DNA of 52,865 nucleotides from a virus (lineage: Duplodnaviria > Caudoviricetes). Within the stretch, counting starts at the first letter, position 1, and each line of letters begins with the position of its first letter. This document shows, piece after piece, positions 16,045-47,700 of the stretch. Under the pieces are notes generated by a model. That model saw nothing but the letters and a program-made list of their open reading frames with translations. It was not told where the DNA came from and made no database searches. The position numbers were made by a program, and so were the translations under genes. Location of the stretch: the IMG/VR virus record IMGVR_UViG_3300017785_005555, positions 1-52,865 of that record. One strand, written 5' to 3'.

Positions 16045-16100
16045 GGCCGGGCTTGGGACCGGCCTGCCGCATTGACCCCCGAGGGGAGGGCCCCTCTGCG
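16045..16100 (-). ncRNA. Twister ribozyme, circularly permuted (P5-type-like), copy 1
   Basis: RNA CGCA-GA-GGG-[GCCCUC/GGGGGU hairpin]-C^AA-UGCG-GC-A-GGCCGG-UCCC-AA-GC-CCGGCC; all twister core elements (P1, P2, P4, T1, T2) can form. Confidence 0.85.
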
Positions 16101-16105
16101 AAGGA

Positions 16106-17707
16106 CTACGCCGCCGCCCGGAAGAGGACGGAGACCAGCTCGCCGGCCGCGCGCTCCACCTGGGCGCGCTGCCACTCGCTGATCTGGTTGCTCATGTGCG
16201 AGCGGGTGATGGCGTTGATGAGGTCCGCCAGGGTGTTGCCCGGCTCCTCCTTCCAGCCGGTGAGGAGGGCCTCGGTGAGGACCGCCGCCTTGATGTCCGT
16301 CGCGAGCTTCTTATGCTCGACCGCCCAGGCCAGGGCCTCGGGGACGGTAGCGAACTTCTCCCCCCAAAGCTGGACCGCCTTGACCTCGGTGTTCCGGAGC
16401 ACGCCCCAGGAGTCGGCGAACTGGTTGAACATCTCGACCACCAGCTCCGTCTTGGCGGTGATCTCCGCCGCGACCGACTGCATGTTCCCCCGGTGACGAC
16501 GGCGGAGGAGGTTGGCGCTCGCCTCGCCGATGATGAGGAGGTTGAGGCAGCGGTTACGCCACGCCGTCCCGTCCACGATGATGGAGCCACCGCGCGCGTC
16601 GTTGCTGGAGTACGTCGCGCCGAGCTGGAACACGTCGCCCGCCGCGAAGTCCACCACCCGGTTGGCGTGCCACGTCGCGTTGACGCGGAGGTTGGTGGTC
16701 TCGGGGTCGTAGACCACCGTACCCCGCGCGTCCTCGGCGGCACCGTGCAGGCCGGCGATGATGTCCGTCGCGATGGCGTCGGCGTCGCGCACCCCGTAGG
16801 TCGTGCTCGTGACGGCGAAGACCGAGCGCACCCCGTTGTAGTCGCGGGTGCGGAGCTTCATCGTCTTCGGCGAGCCGTCGGCCGCGACCAGCTCGTTCGA
16901 GTACCGCTCCATCATCTCGTTGAAGAACGAGGCGCGCAGCTCGACCGGCGCCTTCAACAGGACGGGCAGGGCGCGGGGGAAGATGTCGCCCATGCCCTGG
17001 AGCAGGTGCCGGAAGCCGGACTCCTCCACCGCGAGCCCTTCGCCCGAGCCCTTGGTGATGCGCCCGTTGGGGAGCATCCGGAGGCCGGACATCAGGACGG
17101 TGGTGTCGATGCGGTTCTCCGCCGCGACCGCCGCCTTGACGCCTTCGAGCCCGTCGATAACCGGGGTCTGCTCCTCCCAGGCGAGGCGCGAGGTGCGGAA
17201 GTTGTCCTCGCCGACCGCGAGCACCTTCGAGCCGGCGGCGTAGACCGGGGGCGGGAGGGCGATGCCGATGGTGGAGAGCAGCTCCTCGTGGCGGGCGATG
17301 CGCGCGACCGCGACATCCGAGACCACGATGCTGGACTCGCGGCGCCCGGTGGTGCGGCTCGCGTCCGAGTGAAGTACGCCGGCCCCACCATCGGCCACCG
17401 AGGGGGCCGCCGCCTTGCGGGTGCGGGGAGCCTTGACCACCGGGGTGGGGGCGGCGACCGGCGTGACCACCGGGGCGGCGTCGCGAAGGTGAACCGGCGG
17501 GGTGGCGAGGATGCGCGCGTCGGTGGCAGCGGCCTCGGCGTTGAGCGCCTGCACCCAGGCCGGGGCGGGGACGGTCTCGGGGGCGGGGCGGATGCCCAAC
17601 TCGGCGGGGAAGCCGGCGGACGCGAAGGCCGCGCCGACCGCCTCGTAGGTGCCGGTGAGGGAGACGATGCCGGTGGACTTGTGGAAGAGCTGGAAGGTGC
17701 CGTTCAT
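16106..17707 (-). CDS. DUF932/DUF945-like protein
   Basis: VFAVTSTTY and SSNDARGGS..V..TAWRNRCLN...RRRHRG match the DUF932 pattern (NS.DG.S...R..C.N...RH); C-terminal TL.DL.NAITR. Confidence 0.65.
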   Translation of the reverse strand: MNGTFQLFHKSTGIVSLTGTYEAVGAAFASAGFPAELGIRPAPETVPAPAWVQALNAEAAATDARILATPPVHLRDAAPVVTPVAAPTPVVKAPRTRKAAAPSVADGGAGVLHSDASRTTGRRESSIVVSDVAVARIARHEELLSTIGIALPPPVYAAGSKVLAVGEDNFRTSRLAWEEQTPVIDGLEGVKAAVAAENRIDTTVLMSGLRMLPNGRITKGSGEGLAVEESGFRHLLQGMGDIFPRALPVLLKAPVELRASFFNEMMERYSNELVAADGSPKTMKLRTRDYNGVRSVFAVTSTTYGVRDADAIATDIIAGLHGAAEDARGTVVYDPETTNLRVNATWHANRVVDFAAGDVFQLGATYSSNDARGGSIIVDGTAWRNRCLNLLIIGEASANLLRRRHRGNMQSVAAEITAKTELVVEMFNQFADSWGVLRNTEVKAVQLWGEKFATVPEALAWAVEHKKLATDIKAAVLTEALLTGWKEEPGNTLADLINAITRSHMSNQISEWQRAQVERAAGELVSVLFRAAA

Positions 17708-17753
17708 GATGTGCCTCGTGTGCCGTGCCGGTGTAGTCCGGCGTGGTGGAGTA

Positions 17754-17783
17754 CCTCTATTCCCGGTGCGGGCCGGGCGTCAA
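17754..17783 (-). promoter_or_regulatory. Sigma70-like promoter of the DUF932-like gene
   Basis: TTGACG-N18-TAGAGG, same layout as the promoter at 3336-3365. Confidence 0.6.
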
Positions 17784-17802
17784 GGAAGAACTTTATCAAC
17801 AT

Positions 17803-17858
17803 GCTCGGGCTTGGGACCGAGCCGCCGCATTGAGCAGGTTGAACCTGCCCCCTCTGCG
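17803..17858 (-). ncRNA. Twister ribozyme, circularly permuted (P5-type-like), copy 2
   Basis: RNA CGCA-GA-GGG-[GGCAGG/CCUGCU hairpin]-C^AA-UGCG-GC-G-GCUCGG-UCCC-AA-GC-CCGAGC; core identical to copy 1, stems differ with compensatory changes. Confidence 0.88.
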
Positions 17859-17859
17859 A

Positions 17860-18123
17860 TTAGAGACGCTGCCCCGCGGGCTGGATGCGCCCGGCTTGTA
17901 GCAAGGCCCGAGCGGTACGCCCGAAGAACCCCTGGAGAGTCCAGGCCGCGCCGGTGTCCACCAGGAGCTGCCACGCGGCCAGCACCTCCTCCTCGGTGCC
18001 GTCGGTCGCGCCCTCTGCGAGCATCACGGCGTCGAAGAGATCCAGGGTGGGCGCGGAGGTGGTAGCTTCATTGTCGGTGCTCATGGCGGGCGCGGAGGTG
18101 GTAGCTTCATTGTCGGTGCTCAT
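17860..18123 (-). CDS. Small phage early protein (WQ.LVDTG.AW.LQGFFGR) with a duplicated N-terminus
   Basis: SD AAAGGAG; MSTDNEATTSAP occurs twice. Confidence 0.8.
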   Translation of the reverse strand: MSTDNEATTSAPAMSTDNEATTSAPTLDLFDAVMLAEGATDGTEEEVLAAWQLLVDTGAAWTLQGFFGRTARALLQAGRIQPAGQRL

Positions 18124-18130
18124 GGCGGGC
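18049..18130. repeat. 39-bp exact tandem duplication including the start codon
   Basis: gggcgcggaggtggtagcttcattgtcggtgctcatggc occurs twice. Confidence 0.9.
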
Positions 18131-18134
18131 TCCT

Positions 18135-18356
18135 TTAGGTGAGGCGGGTGGCGATGAAGGTGTAGCCGCGGACGCGGGCAGCGTGGGGTGCTTCGTGCGG
18201 CATGGTGTAGGGGTAGGGGATGTCGAAGCCGACGGGGACGAAGCGACCGAGCCAGAAGGGGCGGGGGGCGCCGCGTCCGACGTAGACCTCGGCGGTAGCG
18301 CGGGCGGGGACTTCAACCTCCAGCCAGTAGCCGGTGGTGGGGCGGGGAAGGGGCAT
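18135..18356 (-). CDS. Hypothetical protein
   Basis: MPLPRPTTGYWLEV..., SD GGAG, 73 aa. Confidence 0.6.
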   Translation of the reverse strand: MPLPRPTTGYWLEVEVPARATAEVYVGRGAPRPFWLGRFVPVGFDIPYPYTMPHEAPHAARVRGYTFIATRLT

Positions 18357-18387
18357 CAGGTCTCCAGGTGGTGATGGTCGGGGAAGG

Positions 18388-18880
18388 AAGCAGTCAGGGG
18401 AGTCGAACCCCTCGTTGCTGCACACTCGGGGATTGGCGGACCAACGCCTATCGCCTCATGTTGGTCGCAGCTCCGGCGCCAAGCTCCTGCATGTGAACGA
18501 CGGCGTGAGCCTTGTAACTCACGCGGGCATTACGAAGTTCTCTCTTAGTCAGGCTAATATGAGAACCCCGTACTCTGCAACCGTCAGGTCCAGAATGTCC
18601 CCATCTTAGGGGTAAGTCGGGGGCCAGGGTTGTCTGCCCGGCCGGCGCGGCGGAAGCCCGCGCTCGTATCACTGACCACTGGCTTGGGGGTGATGTCAAC
18701 CAGGGCCGAGGCCCCGTCCCCTCGGGCGCCGCCGCCCTTGGTGAAGTCAACATCGCCCGCTGGGCCCGGCTTAGCAACAACTTCCTTAGCCTCCTCGTAT
18801 GAACTGTAGGCAAACTCACAGATGCCCTCGCGCTCGGGCCTGTAGCCGGGCACGCTCGCGGTTACGACGGCTCAACTGCT
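18388..18880 (-). ncRNA. Candidate ~490-nt structured ncRNA closed by a tRNA-like domain
   Basis: 5' AGCAGUU pairs with 3' GACUGCU, which directly follows the T-arm AGGGG-UUCGACU-CCCCU; many internal hairpins; CATAAT -10 at 18891-18896; no credible ORF. Confidence 0.65.
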
Positions 18881-18904
18881 GATAAGGGCCATTATGTAAA
18901 GTAA

Positions 18905-18983
18905 GGTGTTGGTTCTGCCTGTAAGTGCAGGTAGAACCTCGGGAAGCGGACTCACGACGGTGTTCCGTTTGGCCTGTAAGTGC
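18905..18983. repeat. Direct repeat GCCTGTAAGTGC (x2), each preceded by GGTGTT
   Basis: Copies at 18917-18928 and 18972-18983, 55 bp apart. Confidence 0.7.
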
Positions 18984-19490
18984 CCGGAATCACTACGATA
19001 ATCTTTCCAGCGGCCCCGTCGTGACCGGGCTCCGGCCCTGGCGGCGCCGCCGTGAACAGCTTCTGCCCACGTTCGGCACCCGGCCCCGCCGCTCGACGAG
19101 CTGCCCGGCGGCACGGAACTTGCAAGGGGCCCAGCACCCCGTCCGTAGCGAAGAACTTCCTTGGCACGGCTCTTGCTACACGCGCGCGCGCCCGGAACAA
19201 TGCTGCGTCCGCCGACCTCGGGGCCGGACCCCGAACGGGAATAACCAAGGAAGTACGCCCACTTGGGTTTTTAGAGCATGGCCGCGTCACGACGCAGCCG
19301 ACCTCGCGCAGGGCCCCTGGGAAGCTCCAGGAGCGCGACGGCGATTCGAGGTACCCCCACGTACGGCTCCAGGCGCCCAGCGCGCTCCTGGTGAATCCAA
19401 GCGTTCCTGCACTTGCGACGAACCCCCCTACTTCCGACCAGCCGGTCAGTCTGCCTGCCCGTCCCCCTGGTCCGGCCCGCCCCTCTCCTC

Positions 19491-19563
19491 GGGGACCGGC
19501 GCCGCCCTCCGCGGGGAGGAGGGGGACCGGCGCCGCCCTCCGCGGGGAGGAGGGGGACCGGCG
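19491..19563. repeat. 31-bp GC-rich tandem repeat (~2.3 copies)
   Basis: ggggaccggcgccgccctccgcggggaggag. Confidence 0.9.
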
Positions 19564-19882
19564 GAGGGGCTGCTCGGCCACCAGGAGAGGGCCACCACCA
19601 GGGGCAGGCCACCAGGGTGGCGGCGGGGGCGGGGACGACGGCGGCGACGGGGGGCTCCCCACCTGGGCGACCTGGAGGGGGGTTCCGTGTGCCCTCGAAA
19701 CTCTTAGTAGTTTATATCAAAGTTAGACTGTTATGACTTCTATTCTACGAGGCGGGGGCCCGATGTCCTTGACCAGGACCCTGATCCGGGCTCTTTGTTT
19801 GTTGAGCGCGCGACCGAAGTTCTCACTCGTATCACTTGATACATAGCAGAGATAGCGGTAGGATCGGGGCGTGAGGTATACG

Positions 19883-20113
19883 ATGATTCTGTCCTTGATC
19901 TTGACCCTGCTCGCGTGCGCGCCCTCGGACCAGCCCACCGAGAACGGAGAGTGCGCGCTGTACGTGGACCCGTCCGTCACCATGGTAGATGGCGTGCTCG
20001 CGCCGGAAGCCTGCTACGAGCACACGGACGACGGCGTGGACTACTCGCTCTGCTGCCCCAAGGGCTGGAAGCCGGTCGGGCTCACGCAGGCCGGGGAGGT
20101 CGTGTGCCTGTAG
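19883..20113 (+). CDS. Small Cys-rich lipoprotein
   Basis: MILSLILTLLA-C lipobox; five further Cys; SD GAGG. Confidence 0.7.
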   Translation: MILSLILTLLACAPSDQPTENGECALYVDPSVTMVDGVLAPEACYEHTDDGVDYSLCCPKGWKPVGLTQAGEVVCL

Positions 20114-36409: not shown

Positions 36410-38719
36410 ATGGCTACGCCTAACGGGGAGAACGACGAACTGCGCATGGCCGGCTTCAAGGCCGCCGTGCCCGCCGTCGTGGAAGCGATCAAGTCCAACC
36501 GCGAGATCGTGGGGACCGCGCGCGAACAGCAGTCCGCGAACTGGCGTGCCGCCGTGGGCGCGGTCGGCAAGTGGGAGGCCGCGCGCCGCACCGGCGAGGG
36601 GAAGGCGATGATCGACGCGCTGGTCGATCTGACGGCCATGGAGCTGGCGGACAGCCCGGTGGATCGCGAGATGCTGCGACGCGTCGAGGAACAGGTGCGC
36701 CTCGCGCAACCCGGCGTGTCTCCGTCCGCCGAGTCGTTCAAGCGGGCGATGTGGCAGGTGTACTCCGAGCAGAACCCGGCACCCGAAGCGGACCCGCGCA
36801 CGCTCGGCACGTTCCGTGCGATGCAGGACAAGTACCCCTGGTCGGACTCGTACATCACCGACAAGGACAAGGTGGCCTGGGCCAACTACCAGCGCATCGT
36901 CAAGCAGGCCGACATCCAGGCCGGCGAGGTCGAGCGGATGGAGAAGGTGCGCGAGCAGGCCCGGTCCATGGCCGACTACCTCGCCAGGAACCCCGACGCC
37001 CAGCCGACGGAGGTGCAGCAGTACATGAAGAACCTGCCCCTGCTCGGGGACTCCGCCGCCATGCAGGGCATCGCCGCGTACGCGAAGAAGCAGGCGAACG
37101 CTGACCCCGTGCTGTCGAAGGAGGAGCGCGAGCAGTACGAACAGAACGACGCCTTGCGCAAGACCTTGGAGCGCAAGGTGATCGACGACGCGAACACCGA
37201 GTCCGAGCGGGACCGGATGGCGCGGATCATCGCCAAGCCCAAGTTCCAGTGGTGGGCGAAGATGAACGGCTTCGACGTGGGCACGGTCAGCCCCAAGGAG
37301 GAGGGGAAGAACTACGGGCCCGACGTGCTTACGCCCGTTGGCGAGTACACTTCCGGACCCGACGACATGGAGGCGATCAAGTACGCGATGGGCCAGCGGA
37401 AGCGCCGTGGCGACCAGGACATGTTCTGGCAGCACCGCCGGCTGCCGGGCACGCCCACGTTCGGGCAGGTGACGGTCAAGTACGGCACCGTGCCGGACGC
37501 CGCGTACAAGGGCGAGGGGGGCACGTACAAGTTCATCGAAGAGAACGGGCAGCGGACCTACCTCAAACCTGACGAAGTTGAAGCCCGGCAGGCGGCGCTG
37601 GAGCAGCAGGCGAAGAAGTGGGTGGAGGAGATGAAGGCGGAGCCCACCCCGGAGAACGTGGCGCGGATGCTCGACGGTTTCGCCGGCAAGATCCAGGAGA
37701 CCACGGACGCACCCCCCAAGGACACCACCCAGGTGATCCGAGGGCAGTTCATGGCGCCGCGTGCAGGCGATCCCGAGGGGTCGGTGCGCTTGAAGGGGTA
37801 CCCCGACCCGTTCATGCCGGACCAGATCGTGGGGGAGCCCGAGGTTACGTCCGGCGGCACCGAGCGGCAGACCCTGGCGCGCTTCGCGTCCGAGCTGGCG
37901 AAGCGGTCGGCGGCGAACCGCGAGGAGCGGCAGCGCGAGACGGCGCCGCGCCCGAGGGCGGATGAGCTGGCGGCCACGCTGGTGCCCGAGCTGGACGGCA
38001 AGGGCGACAAGAACCGTCGCGAAGATGTTTCCTACAAGCGGGAGATGAACGATCGGCGGGACGCGGAGTACGCTGCCGACATCGCGGACGAGCAGAAGCG
38101 GGATCCTCGCGCCGTGCTGTTCGACCTGGACGCGTTGAAGCGGCCGGACCTCCGGCAGCAGGAGAACGCGGACGCCGTGGCGGAGTCCACGGGAGCAGCC
38201 GTGCGCTCGGGAGGACGTACGGAGCGAGGCAAGGCCGCGGACGTAGCGCGGGAAGCGTTCAACGCACGGATGGTGGCCGGGATCACCCAGGCGCCCCCGC
38301 GCGTGGAGGCGTACGACACCAGCAAGGACGCCGCGTACGACACCTCGCAGATGAAGCGCCCGGTGCCCCCGGTGAACCCCCTGGCGCAGCGGGGCGCACC
38401 CCCGGCAGGGACGAACACGCCGGCCCCCGCGCCTACGGTGCCGGGCGCGCGCAGCGCGGGACAGGTGCCGCCCGCTCCGGACCTGGGCCCCAAGCCCACG
38501 CCGCCGCGCAAGACGCTCACGGGGCAGCAGCGAGAAGCAGTCAAGCCCCAGCGTCTCGGGCCGCCTGCGATGGAGGAGCCCGATTTCGAGTTCGGCGATT
38601 CCTCCCAGGACATTGAGGTGGAGGGTGCCACGCGCGACACGCTCGTCACGCCGAGTGCCTCGACCACCATGCCGAAGAAGCGCGGGAGTCAACGCGCCGG
38701 GTTGCTGGGAACGGGGTAG
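36410..38719 (+). CDS. Putative ejection (internal virion) protein
   Basis: 769 aa, helical, between the pilot protein and the giant protein; SD GGAGG. Confidence 0.6.
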   Translation: MATPNGENDELRMAGFKAAVPAVVEAIKSNREIVGTAREQQSANWRAAVGAVGKWEAARRTGEGKAMIDALVDLTAMELADSPVDREMLRRVEEQVRLAQPGVSPSAESFKRAMWQVYSEQNPAPEADPRTLGTFRAMQDKYPWSDSYITDKDKVAWANYQRIVKQADIQAGEVERMEKVREQARSMADYLARNPDAQPTEVQQYMKNLPLLGDSAAMQGIAAYAKKQANADPVLSKEEREQYEQNDALRKTLERKVIDDANTESERDRMARIIAKPKFQWWAKMNGFDVGTVSPKEEGKNYGPDVLTPVGEYTSGPDDMEAIKYAMGQRKRRGDQDMFWQHRRLPGTPTFGQVTVKYGTVPDAAYKGEGGTYKFIEENGQRTYLKPDEVEARQAALEQQAKKWVEEMKAEPTPENVARMLDGFAGKIQETTDAPPKDTTQVIRGQFMAPRAGDPEGSVRLKGYPDPFMPDQIVGEPEVTSGGTERQTLARFASELAKRSAANREERQRETAPRPRADELAATLVPELDGKGDKNRREDVSYKREMNDRRDAEYAADIADEQKRDPRAVLFDLDALKRPDLRQQENADAVAESTGAAVRSGGRTERGKAADVAREAFNARMVAGITQAPPRVEAYDTSKDAAYDTSQMKRPVPPVNPLAQRGAPPAGTNTPAPAPTVPGARSAGQVPPAPDLGPKPTPPRKTLTGQQREAVKPQRLGPPAMEEPDFEFGDSSQDIEVEGATRDTLVTPSASTTMPKKRGSQRAGLLGTG

Positions 38720-38744
38720 ACTCCTACCACCGACGAGTGCGACC

Positions 38745-41700
38745 ATGGCTGATCTGCGACCGGAAGACATCGAGCGCGCGAAGAAGTTGTTTGCTACGGG
38801 AGCCGGCGTGGCCCCTGCGGAGCCGGTCCCCGCGGCACCCGCCCCGCCGAAGGCGTCTGCCGCGGTGCCGCCCAAGGCCACCCCGCGCCCCGTCACCTAC
38901 GAGATGGACGCGAAGGAGCGCAAGGCGGCCAAGGCCGGCGCCTCGGCACCGTCGTGGGACCGCTTGGCGGTAGAAGCGGGGTTGGCCCCTCCTGCGCTCA
39001 TGTCCAAGCTCGCGCCCGCCCTCGACGCCATGGAGCGGGACCCGCTGGACATGAAGGCCCTGGGGGCGAAGCCCGAGGTGGACCCGGAGCTGTTCCTGCG
39101 CGTCGAGGAGACGGACGTGAAGCGGGCGATCCGCAACGCGGAACGCAGCCCCGGCACGATGGACGCCATCAAGGGGCTCGTAGAGCTGGCGACGCCGTTC
39201 AAGGCCGCCGTTCAGCCGGAGCAGGTGGAGGCCGAGGCTAAAGTCAAGCGCCTGGAGATGGCGAACGCCTCCGAGGAAGAACTTGCCCAGGCCCGCGCCG
39301 AGGTAGCCGCCCAGAAGGAGCGCACGAAGCGCGGTGGTGTCAACGTCTACGAGCCGCGGGGCGTGGTGGACACGCTGGGCGACATCGACCGCGGGGGGCC
39401 GGCGGCCTTCATGCGAGACCCCAACAGCGTCATCACCGAAGAGCAGGTTGCGCGCCTGGAAGCCGCCGCTGGTGACGCCGAGGGTAGCGTCTCGGATACG
39501 GACAACACGGACCCCGACTACGACGTGGCGGACGGGCCCCGTACGGCGGCCGGCTCGAAGGAGCTGGCTGTCACCCTGCGTAAGCAGGCCACGGCAGCGA
39601 GGGCGCGTCTGGACAACCAGCGCGGTGCCATGACCACCAACCTCGTGGTGGAGCTGGGCGCCCCTGGTGCCGAGCAGGCGCGCACGCTCATGGCGCAGGT
39701 GACGGAAGGTACGGCGCCGAGTCGGGCCAACCAGGAGTTCCTGGCGCGGTTCTCTGCGTGGTGGTTCAAGCAGGAGGGCGGGGAGCGCGCCGCGTTGACC
39801 GGCCCGGAGCGCGCGGCGTTGCAGGCAGCCGCCGACGCGCAGGCCAAGCGTGCCCTCTTCTCGCTGCGGCAGGGTGGGTGGTGGCCCACCGAGATCTCCG
39901 AAGGAGACGTGAAGGGGCGCGGCAAGCTGGACCTGTTGGACTACGTGAAGGCGGTCGTTCTGCCCCGTGCGGAAGCTACCCCCAGCGGGCAGTCCGTACG
40001 CACGGAGGGGCCCGCAGGCTACGTGTTCAACCGTATGAACCTGCCTATTTCGGCGGCGGCCGAAGTGTATCGGGGGGTCCTCGGCGGGGACATGGACGCG
40101 TACCGGATGCTTCGCGAGAAGGGCGGTTTCCTCGAAGCTCTCGCGGACTTCGAGGAGCTGCCCCGCTTGAAGAAGTGGGCCATGGCGGATGAAGGCACGC
40201 TGGAGTGGACTGCTGCGTGGTCCTTCGTGTGGCTCGGTCTCATCGGAGAGGTGGTCACGCCGGACGGGTTCACCGCCTTGTCCAAGATCGCGGAGATCCC
40301 CGCTTATCTGGCGACCGCCGACCGAGGCTTGGCCGCTGCTCGTGCCGCCAAGGGCGCCGGCTGGGTGGAGCAGGTGCGCGCCGTGAAGGGTGCTGTCGCG
40401 TCCGACGCGTTGCAGTACGCGGACGCGCTGGAGGGGAGCAACCCCGCCTTGGCGCGGATCATCCGCGACCGCGTGAAGGGTCTCGTCGGTCTGACCGAGG
40501 AAGGCCGGGCTGTCCAGACGAAGCTCGGCGACACGCCGCGCACGGGCAAGAGCGGCGCGAAACAACTTCTCCGGGATGGCGTGCGCAGCGACAACGCGGA
40601 CGACGCACGCGCGCTGGACTCGTTGCGGTCGGGTCGGTACGACGAGATCTACGGCAAGGCCAGCAGGGAGGCCATCGCGTCCCTCGACCAGCCGGCCGAG
40701 GGCGCCCGCGCCGCGCGTTCTGCGGACGAGCTTCTGCCCGATGCTCCGCCGGACGCGACGGACGACGCGATGCGCGTGTTCGGTGAGCCCGTGTCGGCCG
40801 GCGTGGCGCGCGCCATGGTGACGGCGGACGACGTGGCGGCGGCACTTCGGGCAGCCTCGAAGGGTAAGGCGCCGTCGGCCATGCGTAAGCTCGCCGCGAA
40901 CATCATCACGCTCTTGGAGCGCAACCCCGAGCTGGCCCCCGTCGTCAAGCAGGTGCGGCAGCGTGTATCGGCGTCCGTCACGGCGGGCACGGTGGACATG
41001 GCGGACCTCCGCGTCGAGATGCTCCGCCGCTTGTTGCAGATCAAGCCGGACGCGGCCCAGCGGGTGCTCGCCAGGGCGGAAGCAGCAGTCGCCAAGCGGG
41101 CGGCGCAGGTGACTGCCCTGGAGCTGGAGATCGCCCGCCGGGACCCTGCCCGCAAGGCCGCCGCCCAGGCGGTGGATGCCAAGCAGGCGGCGGTGAACGC
41201 GGCGCGCGCCGAAGTGGAGAGCATGAAGGCCGGACCCCGGCAGGAACCTGCGATCAACCTGGACGGCGGCCCCACCGTGCGCGCGGGCACCCCTTCGGAC
41301 GCGGCCTCGTTGGAGAAGACGGAGCCCCGCATCGAGCGCGACATCACCCAGCCGGGTGTGCGACCGACGCCGGCCGCGAACGAAGCCACGCCGGTGGTGA
41401 GGCGGGCGGGGACCCCGGCCGTGAACGAAGCCACGCCGGTGATGCGGCGGGCAGGGGCCCAGGCCGCTGTCGTCAAGCTCGATCCGGCGGCCACCGTGGT
41501 GGAGCGTACGGACGCGCACCGGGCCATCGGCCTGGAAGCCGCGCTGGAGCCGCTCGACGAGGTGAAGGCGGCACAGCGCGCCGGGCGGTACGGACCCGCC
41601 GAGCGGCTGCACTTCGCCCACGCGGGGGAGCCCTACCTCCGTCCCGACTTCATCCAACGCCCCCCGATGGAGTACGCGGCCAGCAAGCGGGCCCACCTGC

Positions 41701-44700
41701 TGTTCCTGTCCCTCCTGCGCGAGCACTCCAACGACTTGGCGACGGGCAAGTACCTTGCCGGTGCCGACGCGCTGGACTTCGCGACCAAGTTCAACCTGCC
41801 CTACTACGAGGCGTGGTTCACGCCGCGTGACTTCTTCCGGCTCGAAGTGCGCGAGGTCGGTGGCAGCGGGAAAGTTCGTTCTTACGGGAGCCTGTCCCGC
41901 CAGGAGCAGGTGGGCAAGACCTGGGAGATCGTCAACGTGAAGTGGACGCCCCAGGCGGAAGACTTCTGGAAGCAGCTCGACGACATCGCCGCCGCCAACC
42001 CGGAACGCCCTCGCGCGCGCGCCATGAACGAGTACCTGCGCAGCCTCCTGCCGTGGTCGGACCCGCTCGCCACCGCGGAGGATGTCGGCTTGGTGCGCCT
42101 GTCCGACACCGTGTTCGTGCGCAACCCCGAGGTGGCGAAACAGGTGGGCCCGTTGAAGCAGCCCGTTGAGGTGCTGGAAGACGGCGTGCGCAAGATCCGG
42201 TTTGAGGATGCCGTGTCCGACGGGCTCTCCGCCGAGGTGGTGGGGTTCAAGGACGGCAAGGTCATGGTCCAGCCCATGGAGTTCGTGGACGGGTCGCCCC
42301 GGCGCTCCACCCGGCACGGTCCCGTTGCCGTGTCTGTCGAAGATCTTGCCTACATGGAGCGCGGCCGGGTGCCCCGCACGCGCGAGGGCCGGAAGTTCTC
42401 GTACGTGGGGCCTCGGACGGATGCCGAGTGGCGTGAACTGCGGGCGGCCGAGGACCGGATGCCCGGTGCGCGGTCCATGCGGTACAAGGACCAGGAGCGA
42501 TTCCTGGAGCTGAACCCGCCCAAGCGCCCGACCGCCGAGGAGTTCGACTTCCCGGTGTCCCAGCTCGACCCGGAGGCGCGCGAAGCCGCCATCCGGGCCA
42601 TGGATGCCGCCGGTCGCGCGCGAGGCGTCCCCACGCCGCGGTTCGAGGACGGTGTGAAGGCCGCACCGGCACGTCCCGCCACCCCCGCGCCTGTCGCAGC
42701 CCCGCCCCAGGCGAGTCCTGTTGCCGGGGGCACGGGTCTGGCCGAGCTGGGTGGGGCGGGCGCCGCCATCAGCGACAACCTGTACGTCATGCTGCTCGAC
42801 AAGGCGCGCAAGGGCGACGTGCTGGAGGGCGGCCAGCGGTTGCTCGTGCTCCAGATGGCGGTAGCGTTGCAGCGGCAGGGCGTGGACCTGTCCCTGGACG
42901 TGATGAAGCGTCTGGCGCAGGAGGTGATGGCGATCCGAGGGCAGAACGTGACGGGGGGCGCCTTCCAGCAGGCGGTGAAGGACGCGCTCTCCCGCGTGCA
43001 GGCAGATGTCGCCAAGGCGCAGCCCTCCGAGGGGAACCGCGTGGCCCCCGCGGTTGTTTCCGCCGGCAATAAGGACCGGGAGGTCACGGAGGCGACCAGC
43101 AAGGTGGATCGGATCGAGGCCGGGGCCGGCGAGCGTGCGGGCGCCAAGCTGCGCTACGCCGAGGCCGACCTGGAGCGCGCCCAGAACACCCTGCGCGGGC
43201 TGGGCGAGGGACTCCCCGCGGACATCCCGGAGGTCATGCGCGCTCGGCTGGCGGGCCGGCGGTCTGCTCTCGCCAACGCGCGCCGGGCACAGGCCGAGGC
43301 GGACGCCATGGCGCGCGCCAGCGCCCAGGTGCGGGCCGAAATGCGTGGGGCGTTGAAGCTGGAGCAGTACGTGCGCAAGGGCACGGCTGACGACTTGGCG
43401 AACAGCGCGCGGCACGCCGCTCTCGTCAAGGGCTCTGGCTCGGTGCCGGCGTCCACGGCGGCGACCCCGGCGCGGCGCATCTTCGAGTCCGGCCTGTACA
43501 AGACGCTCGACCGGTACGGCGTGAGCGGGGCGGGTCCCGCTGTCGCGGAGCTGCACAGCTCTCTGGCGCGCACCCTGTCCAAGCTCAACCCCGAGCGGTT
43601 CCCGACTCCCGACGCGTACTACGCCTCGATGATCGTGCGGCAGGGTGACGTGGCTCCGATGGAGGACGCTCACCGACTTCTTCGCCAGAGCGACCTGACG
43701 GACCTCAACGGCAAGCCCCTCTACCGCGCCGTCTCCACGGAGGAGGAGCTGGCCCAGGTGGTAGGCGACCTGCCGGAGCCGGAGATCTGGGAGCTGGACC
43801 ACTACAGCGTGAACAAGGACCTGGACGTGCTGCGGTCGGACGCCCACGGCAAGTACGGCACGCAGCGGTCGTCGGAGTTCAACCCCGGAAACCGGGCGAA
43901 CGACTGGAACTATCTCGGACGCGTGATGTTCTACCCCGGCGGCGCCAAGCCGGAGAGCATGATCGCCTACGGGGCGCAGCAGAAGTACACGACCCAGATC
44001 CGGGCGCGCATCTACGACTTCAAGACGGACCCGCGAAAGATCTTCCCCATCGCGCTGGCGGCGTACCGAAAGATGGAGGCCATGCCGTACAGGGAGCGGA
44101 TGAAGGTCCGTGGCTACGGGGGGCCGGACCCGTTCAACGAGTTCGAGCGCCTGCTCGTGGACCTGGGCTACGACGGGTACAAGTGGCCCATGGGGGCGCC
44201 GGCTGGCGCCGAGCCCACCATCGTCGTGACCATCCTCAACCGCGACGTTCCCATCTCGACCGGCGTGTTCCCGGTACTCGTCCCGAACGGGCCGCTGGGT
44301 GCCGTGCGCAAGGGCTCCAAGCTCGACGTGTCGCCCGACGTGGTGGGGGTGCTGAACCGACGCATGACGCTGGCCCAGGCAGAAGTCGCGTTGCGAGCGC
44401 CGGTGGAAGAACACGCCGTTCTGTTCGTCAACGGCACCCAGGCGGGGCGCTGGGGGCCGGAGCAAACGCGCGCCGCGGGGCACAACCCCCGGAACTCGTG
44501 CGCCATCGACACCGCCGTGCTGGAGCAGGTGCGCGGCCAGGGTGCGGTGTTCACGCACAACCACCCCAACGGCGGCATCCTTAGCCCGGAAGATCTGGCT
44601 GTCGCCTCGTTTGGCGACCTCGGCGAGATGCGAGCGGTACCTTCTGGGGAGAAGGGCTGGGACGACGCGTGGTTCGTGCAGCGGCCCGTCGAGGGTTGGG

Positions 44701-47700
44701 CCTCCCCGGCAGCCATCCATCAAGCATGGTCCGAGGCAGGCAAGAAGGCGTTCGCTGTCGCCCGACGGCAGATGACCGAGTTCATCGTTGCCGCCGGAGG
44801 CGATCCCTACAACGGGTCAATGGTGGGTTATACGAAGGAGAAGTGGCAGCAGCTTCTCAACGATGCCCTTGAACAGGAGTGGCGAAGTGGCCGATACCCC
44901 GAACTCCCCGAACTCTTCCGTGGTTTTACTCGATCGGAACTGGCCTCCGACGTATCCCGAGTGGACGCCGGCTCCGTTCCCGAGCGCGCTGGCGGAGTCC
45001 AGCTCCCCCTCCCTGGCATCCGGACCCTTGCCTCCGCCGAAGGCGCGGATCTCGGGCGGGTCGGACCTGGATTGGGACAAGTTCGGCTCCCCGGAGGGGG
45101 CACCCTCGCCGACATCCACGCCCAGCACCCCGACGCCGCCCGCGGCATCTTCCGGCAGCTCGGCCTCCGAGTAGAGCCGGGCCGGGCCACCGGCGCAGAA
45201 CTTCGTATCTACCCGCTCTTCGACGCGTTCGGCACCGAGCGCGCCGTGGTGGAGGAGCGGGTGCGCGCGTGGCTCAACACGGTCGGCTGGGACTTCAAGG
45301 TCTTCGGCCCCGATGAGGCGGGCGCCGGCTTCTCGCCCCCGAACTTCCGCGACTTCAACTACCAGAACAAGAACGTCTGGATCTTCCAGCCGATGGACCC
45401 CAACGGGTCCTTCCGCGACTACAACTACACGCTGCCCTGGCGCGTGACGCACGAGGTCGCGCACGGGCTGGTGAACGACGCCATCTCCGACCTGTACGGC
45501 GGCCTCGGCAAGCGGCAGGGCGCGCTCGGCGTCGCCACGAAGTTCAACGGCAGGGACGTGCCGGCCCTCACGCTGGCCGACGCGCTGCGTGCCGTGGAGT
45601 GGGAGGCCGAGACGTTCAAGGAGCAGCGCGCCATCCTGGAGCGGGACCTCGGCATCTCCATTACGGAAGAGGCGTTCCGCCAGGAGAACGGGCTGAACAT
45701 GAGCGACGCCGTGTGGCGCGCGATGACGGGGGGCTTCTCGGACCCGTCCGACCTGGGCGTGCTTCCGACGGCGGTTCACCCTGCGGATGTTCTTCGCAAC
45801 GCCCGCAACACCATGCGCGCGGCGGCCCTGGAGATGGGGCTCGACATGGGCGAGACGTTCGGCATCGAGATGAAGGCCGAGCGCGCCGCGCAGGCATCGG
45901 CGGACGGTGTGGCCTGGATCGTGGGCGAAGCTCTGGCACGCAGGGAGGCAGGCGCCACCAAGGAGCAGTTCGCCCGGTGGCTGACCGACACGATGTACAA
46001 GGCGCGCAAGGCGCCCGGCTCCTCCCCCTGGGTGCAGGGCGTGGAGGAAGGCGCTCGCATGGTGGTGCAGGCGGCGGGCATGGACGCGGACAAGGGCACG
46101 CGCTTCCTGGCGGTCGCGTGGGGCAACAGCTTGGCGACGGCGGACGAGATTGCAGGGTTGAATCGCCGGCAGTATTGGCAGGGCATGGCGGTGGACCGCT
46201 ACCCGCCGGACACCGACCGGCTGGCGGCGTCCGTGCGCACGGCTGGCGAGAACGTGGACCCCGAGGACATCCAGGGGCTGATCGACTTCCAGATGGGCCA
46301 GGGCATCATGACGTTCTACCGCACGGGGAACTTCTCCACGGTGCTGCACGAGCCCGCCCACATGTTGCGCCGCATCCTGCCGCCGGACATGCTCGCGGAG
46401 CTGGAGCAGGCCCTGGGCGTCGTGGACGGGAACTGGACGCGGTACCAGGAAGAACAGTTCGTGGCGATGTGGGAGAAGGCGGCGGCCGGCGGGTTCCTTT
46501 CGACCGGCAACCCCGCGCTCGACCGGTCGTTCCGGCAGGTGACGAACACCTTGCGCGCCGTGGCCGAGGACAGCGGCATCGCCGTCTCCCCCACCGTGCA
46601 GCGGCTGTTCGACACGCTGCACCGGGACACGGCGGGGCCGAAGGGACCGATGATCCCCGGCCGGGGGTCGCTGGCGGATGCCGAGCAGGAGCAGCGCGCG
46701 CTGGACGAGGCGTTCCGCCTGTCGAGCCGGTCCCTCCTTCGCGCCACCTGGGAAGACCGGATGGGCCGGCTGCGCCAGTGGCTGCGTCCCGCGCGCGACG
46801 TGCTCGACGGGTCGTTGAAGGAGGTGGTGAAGAACCTCATCCGTAAGGAAGAAGCCGAGCTGTCGGCGTTCAACAAGCGGCTGGCGGACGCCATCACGCG
46901 CACGAAGACGGACCCGCTGCGCGCCCTCGTGACGGACGGCGATGACCTGTCTGTAGACTTCTTCGCTGCCCTTGATGAGGGGGCGGACGGGCGGCTGTTG
47001 GACGCGGCAGCCGTGGCCTTCCTGGACCGCACGAAGATCCCCCTCTCCTCGGACGACATGCGCCTGCTCCGGGAGGCGTTGCGCACGCGTGGCTCGATGG
47101 AGGAGGTGGTGGCGGCGTTGCAGGAGGCATCACTGGCTGTCGTCAGTCGCCAGTTGGAGTACCAGGGGCGCGCGATGCGGGACACCTACACGGGCAAGGC
47201 CCTGCTCACCCAGGCGGCGGGCACCATGGCGTTGCACCACCGGTTCGAGAAGGCGGGGTTCGGTGTCGGCGCCGTGCTCCACAGCGAGGACGCCAAGGCG
47301 GCCTCGGAGTGGCTGGCGGGCACGTCCCGTTCCGACCGGGGGCGTCAGATCGTGCTGGGTGCGATGGAGGACCCGTTCAACTACATCCCGCCGACCAGCG
47401 GGGTGGCTGGGCTGCGGCGCGAGCAGATCTCCCCGTTCGGAACGACGGGCACAAAGTCCCGCGTCGGTAGCACCGTAGCAAAGATCTCCGGCACGCTGGA
47501 GGGGTCTGATGTCTACGTGCCGCGCGTCGTGCGGGACCGGCTCGTGGCCCAGATCGACGCCGTGGAGCAGGCGGCCCAGCCCCCGCTCGGTACGAAGCTG
47601 CTGCTCCGGTACTGGAAGCAGGGGCTCACGTCCGGTGTGCTCCTGGCCCGGCCCACCTACTACCTCAACAACGTGTTCGGCGACTTCGACCAGATCGCAA

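What the first reader, a model, noticed from the sequence alone, without database searches (positions are those of the whole stretch)
18388..18880. ~490-nt ornate ncRNA closed by a tRNA-like acceptor stem and T-arm
Seen (minus strand): 5' AGCAGUU (18880-18874) pairs with GACUGCU (18395-18389), which follows a canonical T-arm AGGGG-UUCGACU-CCCCU. The interior is tiled with helices, including GUGCCC/GGGCAU, GAUGUUGAC/GUUGACAUC, CCGAGG/CCUCGG, GGCCGGG/CCUGGCC, UACGGGGUUCUC/GAGAACUUCGUA, GCGUGAG/CUCACGC and GACCAAC/GUUGGUC. A CATAAT -10 lies just upstream. It lacks tmRNA identity (no GGGG start, G3:U70 or CCA), a normal D-arm, and recognisable group I/II intron or RNase P motifs. Inference: an unclassified large phage RNA heading the early operon, perhaps cut out by host tRNA-processing enzymes; possible roles are tRNA-nuclease decoy, divergent tmRNA mimic or scaffold.
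Basis: partly seen in the sequence, partly recalled or inferred. Interest (0 to 1): 0.88.

Follow-up and report, generated by a model that had tools for sequence, protein, structure and literature searches.

The report
Long structured leader with tRNA-like hairpin
This is most likely the long untranslated leader of a freshwater phage's early operon, ending in a hairpin that looks like a tRNA T-arm; no related sequence was found, so a separate large RNA is neither shown nor excluded.

Summary
They lie in a 1.5-kb gap without coding signal, between the divergent operons of a complete 52.9-kb, 68% GC freshwater phage genome. No Rfam family or ARAGORN gene matches the region.

The "ornate, tRNA-closed 490-nt RNA" is only partly supported:
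- **Structure:** the excess is modest (z -3.25; 16 coding controls averaged -0.47, lowest -2.78). It sits in the 3' ~200 nt (z -2.4). The 5' 300 nt fold no better than shuffles (z -0.55).
- **Helices:** three of the nine named helices have probability ~0.
- **Closing stem:** a 7-bp partner for the 3' strand occurs by chance once per 714-2,400 nt. The stem is predicted only if the RNA starts within a few bases of 18884.
- **T-arm-like hairpin:** this is the strongest feature. Such hairpins outside tRNAs occur about once per 272 kb of strand.

The only relative that shares the leader (L022) has the same promoter-like block and the same block upstream of the first gene, 44 nt apart instead of 493. 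The finding is therefore a lineage-specific insert in a 5' UTR.

No homologue of the insert was found, so covariation could not be tested. No RNA data exist. My best reading is a cis-acting structured leader with a tRNA-like processing or stability module (0.40).

The parts
18889..18902 (-). Conserved promoter-like block ACTTTACATAATGG, containing the CATAAT -10-like hexamer (18896-18891). The RNA probably starts near 18883-18885 (inferred from usual -10 spacing).
   Evidence: Unique in the window (1 match at up to 2 mismatches, 0.16 expected). Shared with L022 (1 of 35 loci). The extended form ACTTTACATAATGG-N-C-N-TT-R-T is shared by 24 of 108 distinct contexts from otherwise unrelated phages.
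18874..18880 (-). 5' strand AGCAGUU of the proposed acceptor-like closing stem.
   Evidence: Sequence. Pairing probability is 0.93 (ends 18880/18388), 0.61-0.78 (ends 18884/18345) and <=0.02 with longer 5' flanks. It aligns with the RGNAGT part of the conserved promoter motif.
18584..18853 (-). 89-codon ORF (GTG start) covering the poorly structured 5' half. Doubtful as a gene.
   Evidence: Codon log-odds +0.32 per codon, against 0.33-1.19 for 6 neighbouring genes and -0.61 to -0.22 for 9 other ORFs in the gap. Of 165 spurious in-gene ORFs, 21% reach this value. No Shine-Dalgarno sequence. Only a self hit in 5.8 billion proteins and among 1.84 billion representatives. No Pfam or PHROG family. 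AlphaFold2 pLDDT 57, pTM 0.11, no secondary structure.
18692..18754 (-). Domain closed by the 9-bp helix GAUGUUGAC/GUUGACAUC.
   Evidence: Probability 0.95-0.98 in 3 of 4 contexts. Present in the MFE structure.
18531..18572 (-). 12-bp hairpin UACGGGGUUCUC/GAGAACUUCGUA.
   Evidence: Probability 0.95 in 4 of 4 contexts. The 160-nt windows that cover it have z -3.42 and -3.52 on the minus strand.
18503..18524 (-). 9-bp hairpin GCGUGAGUU/GGCUCACGC.
   Evidence: Probability 0.54-0.99. Present in the MFE structure.
18396..18412 (-). T-arm-like hairpin AGGGG-UUCGACU-CCCCU (5-bp stem, 7-nt T-loop-like loop).
   Evidence: Probability 0.91-0.97 in 3 of 4 contexts. The strict T-arm pattern occurs outside tRNAs once per 272 kb of strand. 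The hairpin is not part of any tRNA or tmRNA call.
18389..18395 (-). 3' strand GACUGCU of the proposed acceptor-like stem, directly after the T-stem and followed by UCCU.
   Evidence: Sequence. Chance frequency of a partner site.
18373..18388 (-). Conserved block 2, TCCTTCC(CC)GACCATC, just upstream of the first gene. Its CAUCA can pair with the UGAUG that spans the start codon.
   Evidence: Shared only with L022 (1 of 35 loci), where it lies 44 nt after block 1 and 3 nt before an ATG. Unique in the window at 0 mismatches. CAUCA/UGAUG pairing probability 0.52-0.54.
18135..18356 (-). First gene of the leftward operon (73 aa; GGAG Shine-Dalgarno sequence 7 nt before the ATG at 18356).
   Evidence: Codon log-odds +0.72, GC3 0.86. 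Shine-Dalgarno sequence.

Best explanation
The 493 nt are the body of an unusually long (~530 nt) untranslated 5' leader of the phage's leftward early operon.

Proposed mechanism:
1. Transcription starts a few bases downstream of a conserved promoter-like block (CATAAT at 18896-18891).
2. It runs through a weakly structured 5' half and a ~200-nt multi-hairpin 3' domain.
3. The leader ends in a T-arm-like hairpin placed 9 nt before a conserved pre-gene block and 40 nt before the first start codon.

Compared with the nearest relative that shares the leader, the segment is a lineage-specific insert of about 450 nt between two conserved blocks.

I propose that it acts in cis. The T-arm-like hairpin, stacked on a stem formed with the 5' end of the transcript, makes a tRNA-like minihelix. 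A host tRNA-end nuclease (RNase Z or RNase P) or another ribonuclease cuts or is blocked there. That would set the 5' end, stability and translation of the first early mRNA, much as the two twister ribozymes and the tRNA-Met gene punctuate the same operon further downstream.

- **Shown:** position, lack of coding signal, local hairpins, conserved flanking blocks, absence from known families.
- **Inferred:** transcription start, the closing stem in vivo, any cleavage, any effect on expression.
For: - **Non-coding gap.** There is no GC3 periodicity from 18400 to 19700, while the flanking genes show 0.8-1.0 in one phase. GC falls to 0.61-0.63 against 0.67-0.78 in the flanks.
- **Operon head.** Genes run leftward from 18356 and rightward from 19871.
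- **Conserved flanks, variable middle.** Block 1 and block 2 are each found in 1 of 35 loci, the same one (L022). They are collinear and on the same strand, 44 nt apart there and 493 nt apart here. Block 2 precedes the first start codon in both phages.
- **Block 1 behaves as a functional site.** Its extended form recurs in 24 of 108 distinct contexts from phages that share no proteins with the window.
- **Structure in the 3' domain.** z -2.42 and local z -3.4 to -3.5. Three hairpins and the T-arm hairpin have probability >=0.9 in most contexts.
- **The T-arm-like hairpin is rare outside tRNAs**.
- **The closing stem fits the predicted start.** With a 5' end at 18884 it has probability 0.61-0.78.
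- **Other RNA-processing marks in the same operon.** Two Twister-P5 ribozymes (51.1 and 49.4 bits against a gathering score of 37.6) and tRNA-Met. A review states that bacterial self-cleaving ribozymes lie near phage genes and may process polycistronic transcripts (PMC6765202, passages read).
Against: - No homologue of the insert exists in anything searched, so there is no covariation and no conservation.
- The 5' 300 nt are not more structured than shuffles.
- The whole-region z of -3.25 is only about 2 sd below the mean of this genome's coding segments.
- The plus strand also scores z -2.48.
- A partner for the 3' strand is expected by chance 0.2-0.7 times in 500 nt.
- The closing stem vanishes if the transcript starts 25 nt or more upstream. 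A sigma-70-like promoter at 19769-19742 on the same strand could give such a transcript.
- The trailer lacks CCA, and there is no D-arm or anticodon arm.
- The transcription start and any cleavage are unmeasured.
Confidence: 0.4

Rival explanations
1. A discrete, stable ~490-nt non-coding RNA is closed by an acceptor-like stem and T-arm. Host RNase P or RNase Z cuts it out of the early transcript, and it acts in trans as a decoy for tRNA-directed nucleases, a scaffold or a divergent tmRNA-like molecule.
For: - The 7-bp stem, 5-bp T-stem and 7-nt T-loop-like loop are contiguous, which is the geometry of a tRNA minihelix.
- The 5' strand lies 11-17 nt after the conserved CATAAT, at the predicted 5' end. 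For a fixed 3' strand, a partner within the first ~15 nt of the transcript is expected only about 0.6-2% of the time (my arithmetic).
- The ends of the stem coincide with the limits of the segment that L022 lacks.
- The closing stem has probability 0.93 for the excised form.
- Whole-region z is -3.25.
Against: - No covariation can be shown.
- The 5' 300 nt are unstructured by z-score.
- Three named helices have probability ~0.
- There is no D-arm, no G3:U70 and no CCA.
- There is no tmRNA, tRNA, YrlA, GOLLD or ROOL match and no Ro60 gene.
- The 5' strand overlaps the conserved promoter motif, so its sequence may be fixed for another reason.
Confidence: 0.12
2. The 5' half encodes a small orphan early protein (ORF 18853-18584, 89 aa). 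Only the ~200 nt between it and the next gene form a structured intergenic spacer, with hairpins that act as mRNA stabilisers or processing sites.
For: - The ORF is the only one of 10 in the gap with a positive codon score (+0.32 per codon; the others are -0.61 to -0.22).
- Its translation is not low-complexity throughout.
- The region it covers is the part without excess RNA structure, and the structured part begins right after its stop codon.
- The large protein collection holds this 89-aa protein (99% identical; 2 member sequences), so a gene caller predicted it on another contig.
Against: - GC3 is 0.73, against 0.83-0.94 for the neighbouring genes.
- 21% of 165 spurious ORFs reach the same score.
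- It has a GTG start with no Shine-Dalgarno sequence.
- No homologue beyond itself appears in two very large searches.
- It has no Pfam or PHROG family.
- AlphaFold2 gives pLDDT 57, pTM 0.11 and no secondary structure from the single sequence.
Confidence: 0.15
3. The segment has no dedicated function. It is fast-evolving spacer DNA beside the promoter and origin region, possibly holding the decayed remnant of a tRNA gene. The hairpins and closing stem are what 62% GC sequence gives by chance.
For: - Nothing in the interior is conserved in any relative.
- The z-score is modest.
- The closing stem is at chance frequency.
- Across the whole genome, about 0.4 non-tRNA T-arm-like hits are expected, and one also occurs inside the portal gene.
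- ARAGORN at an 80% threshold draws a poor 86-nt tRNA-like fold at 18389-18474 around the same hairpin. That fits a decayed tRNA.
Against: - Phage genomes are compact, and 1.5 kb without genes is unusual here.
- The T-arm-like hairpin is expected only about 0.01 times in the 3 kb of strand in the gap.
- The minus strand is consistently more structured than the plus strand in the 3' domain.
- The insert sits exactly between two conserved functional blocks.
Confidence: 0.28

Closest known systems
tmRNA (tRNA-like domain closing a large pseudoknotted RNA)
   Same: Same topology: the 5' strand of an acceptor stem, a long interior, then a T-arm directly followed by the 3' acceptor strand. Comparable length.
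   Different: Pair 3:70 is C:G, not G:U. There is no CCA, no recognisable tag reading frame and no D-loop analogue. ARAGORN and the Rfam tmRNA models give no match, even at E<=10. The tmRNA features listed are from my own knowledge.
YrlA / bacterial Y RNAs with a tRNA-like domain
   Same: A non-coding RNA with a T-arm and an acceptor-like stem. Some are phage-encoded. The M. smegmatis form has a 7-bp stem, is cut by RNase P and receives CCA (PMC4201824, passages read).
   Different: YrlA is about 100 nt and is encoded next to Ro60. This genome has no TROVE/Ro60 gene and no YrlA match. There is no D-arm mimic.
GOLLD and ROOL large ornate phage RNAs
   Same: Large (500-800+ nt) RNAs of unknown function encoded in phages and prophages (PMC12286853, passages read).
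   Different: They are defined by conserved, covarying structures and often lie near tRNA islands. Here there is no covariance-model match. The nearest tRNA is about 15.7 kb away. Half of the region lacks excess structure.
tRNA and tRNA-like 'punctuation' of polycistronic transcripts, where RNase P or RNase Z cuts at embedded tRNA-like elements
   Same: A minihelix-like element sits directly upstream of a gene inside an operon that also holds a real tRNA and two self-cleaving ribozymes.
   Different: Only a T-arm and a long-range stem are present, not a full cloverleaf. Cleavage is untested. The concept is recalled from general knowledge, not from a paper read here.

Membership tests
tRNA (Rfam RF00005; ARAGORN) | Cloverleaf with D-arm, anticodon arm, T-arm and acceptor stem within about 70-95 nt | tested here: not met
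   ARAGORN at default settings finds none in the region. Rfam has no tRNA match at E<=10 on 18340-18920. At relaxed thresholds ARAGORN gives only poor folds: 1 hit at 80% and 20 hits at 60% in 2 kb.
tRNA with an intron in the anticodon loop | Two tRNA halves separated by an intron; a group I intron core if self-splicing | tested here: not met
   ARAGORN with introns of 0-700 nt finds 0 genes at default settings. At 85% it gives 3 mutually overlapping poor calls. No Rfam intron match.
tmRNA | G3:U70 in the acceptor stem, a 3' CCA, a tag reading frame, and a match to the covariance model or ARAGORN | tested here: not met
   Pair 3 is C:G and the trailer is UCCU. ARAGORN finds none at default settings. 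At a 70% threshold it calls only three permuted candidates on the opposite strand, which I judge spurious. No Rfam match.
YrlA / Y RNA | Match to the YrlA model and a neighbouring Ro60 (TROVE) gene | tested here: not met
   RF02553: 0 matches at E<=0.001. PF05731: 0 matches, with the control ringing in 2 of 14 genomes.
GOLLD, ROOL and other large ornate RNAs in Rfam | Match to the family covariance model | tested here: not met
   No match at gathering scores over the whole genome. None at E<=10 on the region.
Group I / group II introns, RNase P RNA | Match to the family covariance model | tested here: not met
   No match at E<=10.
Self-cleaving ribozymes (twister, twister-sister, hammerhead, pistol, hatchet, HDV-like) | Match to a family covariance model inside 18388-18880 | tested here: not met
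   None inside the finding. Two Twister-P5 copies lie downstream at 17858-17805 and 16100-16047.
tRNA-like minihelix substrate (works like one; not a sequence family) | A 7-bp acceptor-like stem stacked on a 5-bp T-stem with a 7-nt T-loop and no spacer on the 3' side | tested here: inconclusive
   The strings fit. The stem is predicted only for 5' ends near 18880-18884, and a partner site is frequent by chance.
tRNA-like minihelix substrate (works like one; not a sequence family) | Cleavage by RNase P or RNase Z at the ends of the stem | not testable with these tools
   No RNA run holds the phage. This needs an enzyme assay.
Phage attP carrying the 3' end of a host tRNA or tmRNA gene | Identity of the T-arm plus acceptor strand to a host gene, and an integrase nearby | tested here: not met
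   The 22-nt T-arm plus acceptor string has 0 exact matches in the genomes of 185,579 species. No PF00589 integrase, with the control ringing in 14 of 14 genomes. Serine recombinases were not searched.

The most novel reading that the evidence does not exclude
A new class of phage RNA: a ~490-nt insert in an early 5' UTR that folds so its two ends form a tRNA-like acceptor/T-arm minihelix. Host RNase P and RNase Z would then excise it like a tRNA. This would release a stable structured RNA and an mRNA whose 5' end is the conserved block 2. It would be a tRNA-mimicking, excisable leader in an operon already punctuated by twister ribozymes.
Probability: 0.1. Interest if true: 0.7.

Novelty: new variant of a known kind. 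Interest (0 to 1): 0.3.

Why it matters
If the minihelix is real and is processed, it would be a phage example of tRNA mimicry used to shape an early mRNA. It would sit beside two self-cleaving ribozymes and a tRNA in one operon, making this phage a compact model for RNA punctuation of polycistronic transcripts.

As it stands, the finding is a single sequence without relatives or expression data. Its main value is as a flagged locus for when homologues or a host become available. The twister pair next door is, on present evidence, the firmer and more testable oddity.

Tried and rejected
**Searches for homologues of the region (all blank for the interior)**
- blastn 'distant' of 18200-19100 against 50,697 phage records: no match.
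- Exact 25-nt T-arm plus acceptor string in viral contigs: 0. The 22-nt version in genome contigs: 0.
- The 533-aa neighbour in viral contigs and by tblastn against phages: no relatives. The primase in viral contigs: no matches.
- TerL gave 20 viral loci, 15 metagenome loci and 1 genome locus. blastn and nhmmer of 17700-20000 or 18357-18905 against them found only the promoter block.
- Promoter-block scans and a twister-core scan gave 142 more loci. None shares proteins, apart from one distant TerL in L130. None shares the leader interior. Local alignments were at shuffle level; the best was L174, score 29 against a shuffle maximum of 28.

**Natural variants.** Contigs of 4 runs (of 14 listed) laid on 17700-20000 showed no substitutions in the region. 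The only change was a 1-nt deletion at 19521 in one contig. The partial holders are low-coverage copies of the same phage.

**RNA evidence.** No RNA holder was listed among the 14 runs.

**Coding**
- Pfam and PHROGs scans of the ORFs at 18448-18819, 18584-18853 and 18952-19662: 0 families.
- AlphaFold2 on the 89-aa ORF gave no fold. A single-sequence model is weak evidence either way.

**attP remnant.** Rejected: no host match and no tyrosine integrase.

**Other genes in the genome**
- No RtcB, reverse transcriptase or TROVE domain.
- The T7-type RNA polymerase search is uninformative, because its control rang in 0 of 14 genomes.

**Mobile element.** There is no second copy of any part of the segment in the genome or in the loci.

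**Literature**
- Searches of the held library found no paper on this motif or on twister pairs flanking phage genes. Terms used: 'twister ribozyme'+'bacteriophage'+'flanking'; 'DUF932'+'ribozyme', 0 papers; twister/self-cleaving/phage/circular RNA/RtcB; the 12-nt promoter string, 2 unrelated papers. For these I saw listings only.
- I read passages, not whole texts, of PMC4201824, PMC12286853 and PMC6765202.
- Supplements were not opened. Those of PMC4201824, which list phage YrlA RNAs, might bear on the Y RNA comparison.

**Not done**
- I did not build a covariance model from the single sequence. nhmmer and blastn had already found nothing, and a one-sequence model adds little reach.
Full report
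**Context.** The window is the whole record: one 52,865-bp contig. IMG/VR classes it as a virus genome with direct terminal repeats and 100% estimated completeness. It comes from freshwater metagenomes and is 67.8% GC. Genes with GC3 of 0.86-0.97 run leftward from about 18356 down to 121 and rightward from about 19871.

Between them, 18357-19870 shows no codon-position GC periodicity and a dip in GC to 0.61-0.63. The left arm carries a family A DNA polymerase, a PD-(D/E)XK nuclease and a VapE-like primase. There is no tyrosine integrase. The finding (18388-18880, minus strand) is the part of the gap next to the first leftward gene. That gene starts with ATG at 18356 and has a GGAG Shine-Dalgarno sequence.

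**The observation.** The T-arm-like hairpin AGGGG-UUCGACU-CCCCU (18412-18396) is directly followed by GACUGCU (18395-18389). That strand is complementary to AGCAGUU (18880-18874). CATAAT lies at 18896-18891.

No known family matches:
- ARAGORN finds only tRNA-Met at 2575-2652.
- Rfam at gathering scores finds that tRNA and two Twister-P5 ribozymes.
- At E<=10 Rfam adds nothing relevant, on 4 kb or on 581 nt.
- Relaxed ARAGORN runs give only poor, mutually inconsistent folds.

**Is it more than chance?**
- *Whole-region stability.* The 493 nt fold to -223.8 kcal/mol with z -3.25. The complementary strand gives z -2.48. Sixteen coding segments of equal length from the same genome give mean -0.47, sd 1.34 and minimum -2.78. 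The region is more stable than all 16, but by about 2 sd.
- *Where the excess lies.* It is not spread evenly. 18380-18590 has z -2.42 (1 of 200 shuffles). The 160-nt windows at 18420-18639 have z -3.4 and -3.5 on the minus strand. 18584-18885 has z -0.55 (22 of 100 shuffles).
- *Named helices.* Four are robust in the Boltzmann ensemble across four sequence contexts, one is variable, and three have probability ~0.
It is <=0.02 once 25 or more upstream bases are present. Sites that can pair 7 of 7 with GACUGCU occur once per 714 nt of this strand, or once per 2,403 nt with at most one G-U. A partner somewhere in the 500 nt upstream is therefore unremarkable.
- *T-arm-like hairpin.* A strict pattern (5-bp stem ending in G, loop TTCRANY) hit 18 places inside the 19 ARAGORN tRNAs in 150 unrelated loci. 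It hit 10 places outside tRNAs in 2.72 Mb of strand. That gives about 0.01 expected in the gap and about 0.4 in the whole genome. One such chance hit does sit in the portal gene.

**The one informative relative.** TerL searches gave 36 loci. The best are L001 (77% identical, but the contig starts at TerL), L002 (62%), and L003 and L022 (58%). None aligns with the region by blastn or nhmmer.

L022 does share two short blocks with the window, on the same strand and in the same order:
- **Block 1:** ACTTTACATAATGG..TTATC, at window 18902 and L022 6669.
- **Block 2:** TCCTTCC(CC)GACCATC, at window 18388-18373 and L022 6603-6590.

Each block is found in 1 of 35 loci. In L022 the blocks are 44 nt apart, and block 2 lies 3 nt before an ATG that opens a 119-codon ORF. 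In the window they are 493 nt apart, and block 2 lies 16 nt before the start codon. The finding's coordinates are thus exactly the segment that L022 lacks. I read it as an insert in, or an expansion of, the 5' UTR of the first early gene.

Block 1 is more than shared ancestry. Its extended form, ACTTTACATAATGG-N-C-N-TT-R-T-NN-R-AAGT, occurs in 24 of 108 distinct contexts recovered by a 14-mer scan. Those phages have 38-68% GC and share no proteins with the window. It therefore behaves like a promoter or operator.

This supports a transcription start a few bases after CATAAT, near 18883-18885 (inference). That is the condition under which the closing stem is predicted. For a fixed 3' strand, a partner within the first ~15 nt of the transcript is expected only about 0.6-2% of the time (arithmetic). 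Against it, four of the seven bases of AGCAGUU (G, A, G and U) coincide with conserved positions of the promoter motif. They may be fixed for that reason.

**Coding?** Of ten ORFs in the gap, only 18853-18584 (89 codons, GTG start) has a positive codon score: +0.32 per codon. The other nine score -0.61 to -0.22, and six neighbouring genes score 0.33-1.19. It covers the unstructured half.

Several results count against a real gene:
- GC3 is 0.73.
- It has no Shine-Dalgarno sequence.
- 21% of 165 spurious ORFs score as high.
- It has no Pfam or PHROG family.
- Only itself was found among 5.8 billion proteins (1 of 4 candidates).
- Among 1.84 billion representatives, the only additions were two weak matches, which I judge to be low-complexity.
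- AlphaFold2 gives no fold (pLDDT 57, pTM 0.11).

I give a real small gene 0.15.

**What it most likely is.** It is the long leader of the leftward early operon. The 3' ~200 nt form a multi-hairpin domain that ends in a T-arm-like hairpin next to the conserved pre-gene block. Block 2's CAUCA can pair with the UGAUG spanning the start codon (probability 0.52-0.54). This suggests a link to translation of the first gene.

The same operon carries two Twister-P5 ribozymes and a tRNA gene. All of these are RNA-cleavage signals. A review notes that bacterial self-cleaving ribozymes cluster near phage genes and may process polycistronic transcripts (PMC6765202, passages).

I therefore favour a cis-acting processing, stability or translation module (0.40) over three rivals: a trans-acting excised RNA (0.12), a small gene plus spacer (0.15), and no function or a decayed tRNA (0.28). 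All steps beyond anatomy are inferred.

**Comparison with known systems.** By topology it resembles tmRNA, and in its tRNA mimicry it resembles YrlA (PMC4201824, passages). By size and phage origin it resembles GOLLD and ROOL (PMC12286853, passages). It fails every membership test that could be run (see Membership tests). It is also not an attP copy of a host tRNA end.

**Limits.** There is no homologue of the interior, no natural variants and no RNA data. The host is unknown.

**Verdict.** Interest is 0.3. The most novel reading still open is a tRNA-mimicking excisable leader RNA, at probability about 0.1.

Noticed in passing
window 17805-17858 (-) and 16047-16100 (-): Two Twister-P5 ribozymes (51.1 and 49.4 bits; gathering score 37.6) lie in the two intergenic gaps that flank the 533-aa ORF 17707-16106 (weak DUF932 match). 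They have the same orientation and are 1,758 nt apart. Only the ribozyme cores align; the variable hairpin differs in sequence but pairs in both copies. Cleavage at both would free a ~1.76-kb one-gene RNA whose ends are complementary twister halves, so a circular form is conceivable (inference; no RtcB gene in the phage). My literature searches found no description of this arrangement..
   Followed up: partly
L156-L170 (viral contigs): A scan with the twister-core pattern found 15 viral stretches. blastn with the window's twister shows several copies in some of them: L166 has 4, L169 has 4, L164 has 3 and L168 has 2. None shares proteins with the window's early region. Twister arrays therefore seem to recur in mid- to high-GC environmental phages..
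   Followed up: partly
window 18875-18902 (-); L022 6642-6669 (-); 22 other loci: A ~30-nt motif, ACTTTACATAATGG-N-C-N-TT-R-T-NN-R-AAGT, is partly palindromic (CATAATGG/CCATTATG in some copies). It is shared by 24 of 108 distinct contexts from phages of 38-68% GC that share no proteins with the window. Many copies have CTGTGGATAAC (resembling a DnaA box) about 10 nt upstream. It is probably a promoter or operator of unknown specificity. A literature search for the string found nothing relevant..
   Followed up: partly
window 19440-19870: The part of the gap next to the rightward operon looks like a replication origin. It has an exact 31-nt tandem repeat (19491-19552), three GGCCACCAGG-like repeats (~19575-19615) at up to 83% GC, and then an AT-rich stretch (19690-19860) with sigma-70-like promoters on both strands (19769-19742 minus; 19836-19864 plus)..
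   Followed up: no
window 18917-18928 and 18972-18983 (-): GCACTTACAGGC occurs twice, 55 nt apart, just upstream of the promoter-like block, and each copy is followed by a similar AAC..AACACC stretch. This may be a regulator binding site. The 12-mer count alone is not above chance (2 found, 3.2 expected at up to 2 mismatches)..
   Followed up: no
window 18960-19179 and 19260-19419 (-): Two further patches of the gap fold better than shuffles on the minus strand (z -3.88 and -3.30 in 160-nt windows). They lie upstream of the finding and were not explained..
   Followed up: no
window 38613-49643 (+): A 3,676-aa ORF with strong coding signal has no Pfam match. It is probably a giant virion protein..
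   Followed up: no
L171 (contig of a Phycisphaeraceae MAG): TerL, portal and capsid-region proteins are 50-53% identical to the window's, on an 11.9-kb contig binned to a Planctomycetota MAG. This is a weak host hint only. The contig has no leader homologue..
   Followed up: partly
L173 8162-8500 (+) and L175 3725-3390 (-): Two 71% GC viral contigs carry the same promoter-like motif, followed by about 340 nt without an obvious ORF before an ATG. This is another long leader behind the motif, unrelated in sequence to the window's..
   Followed up: no
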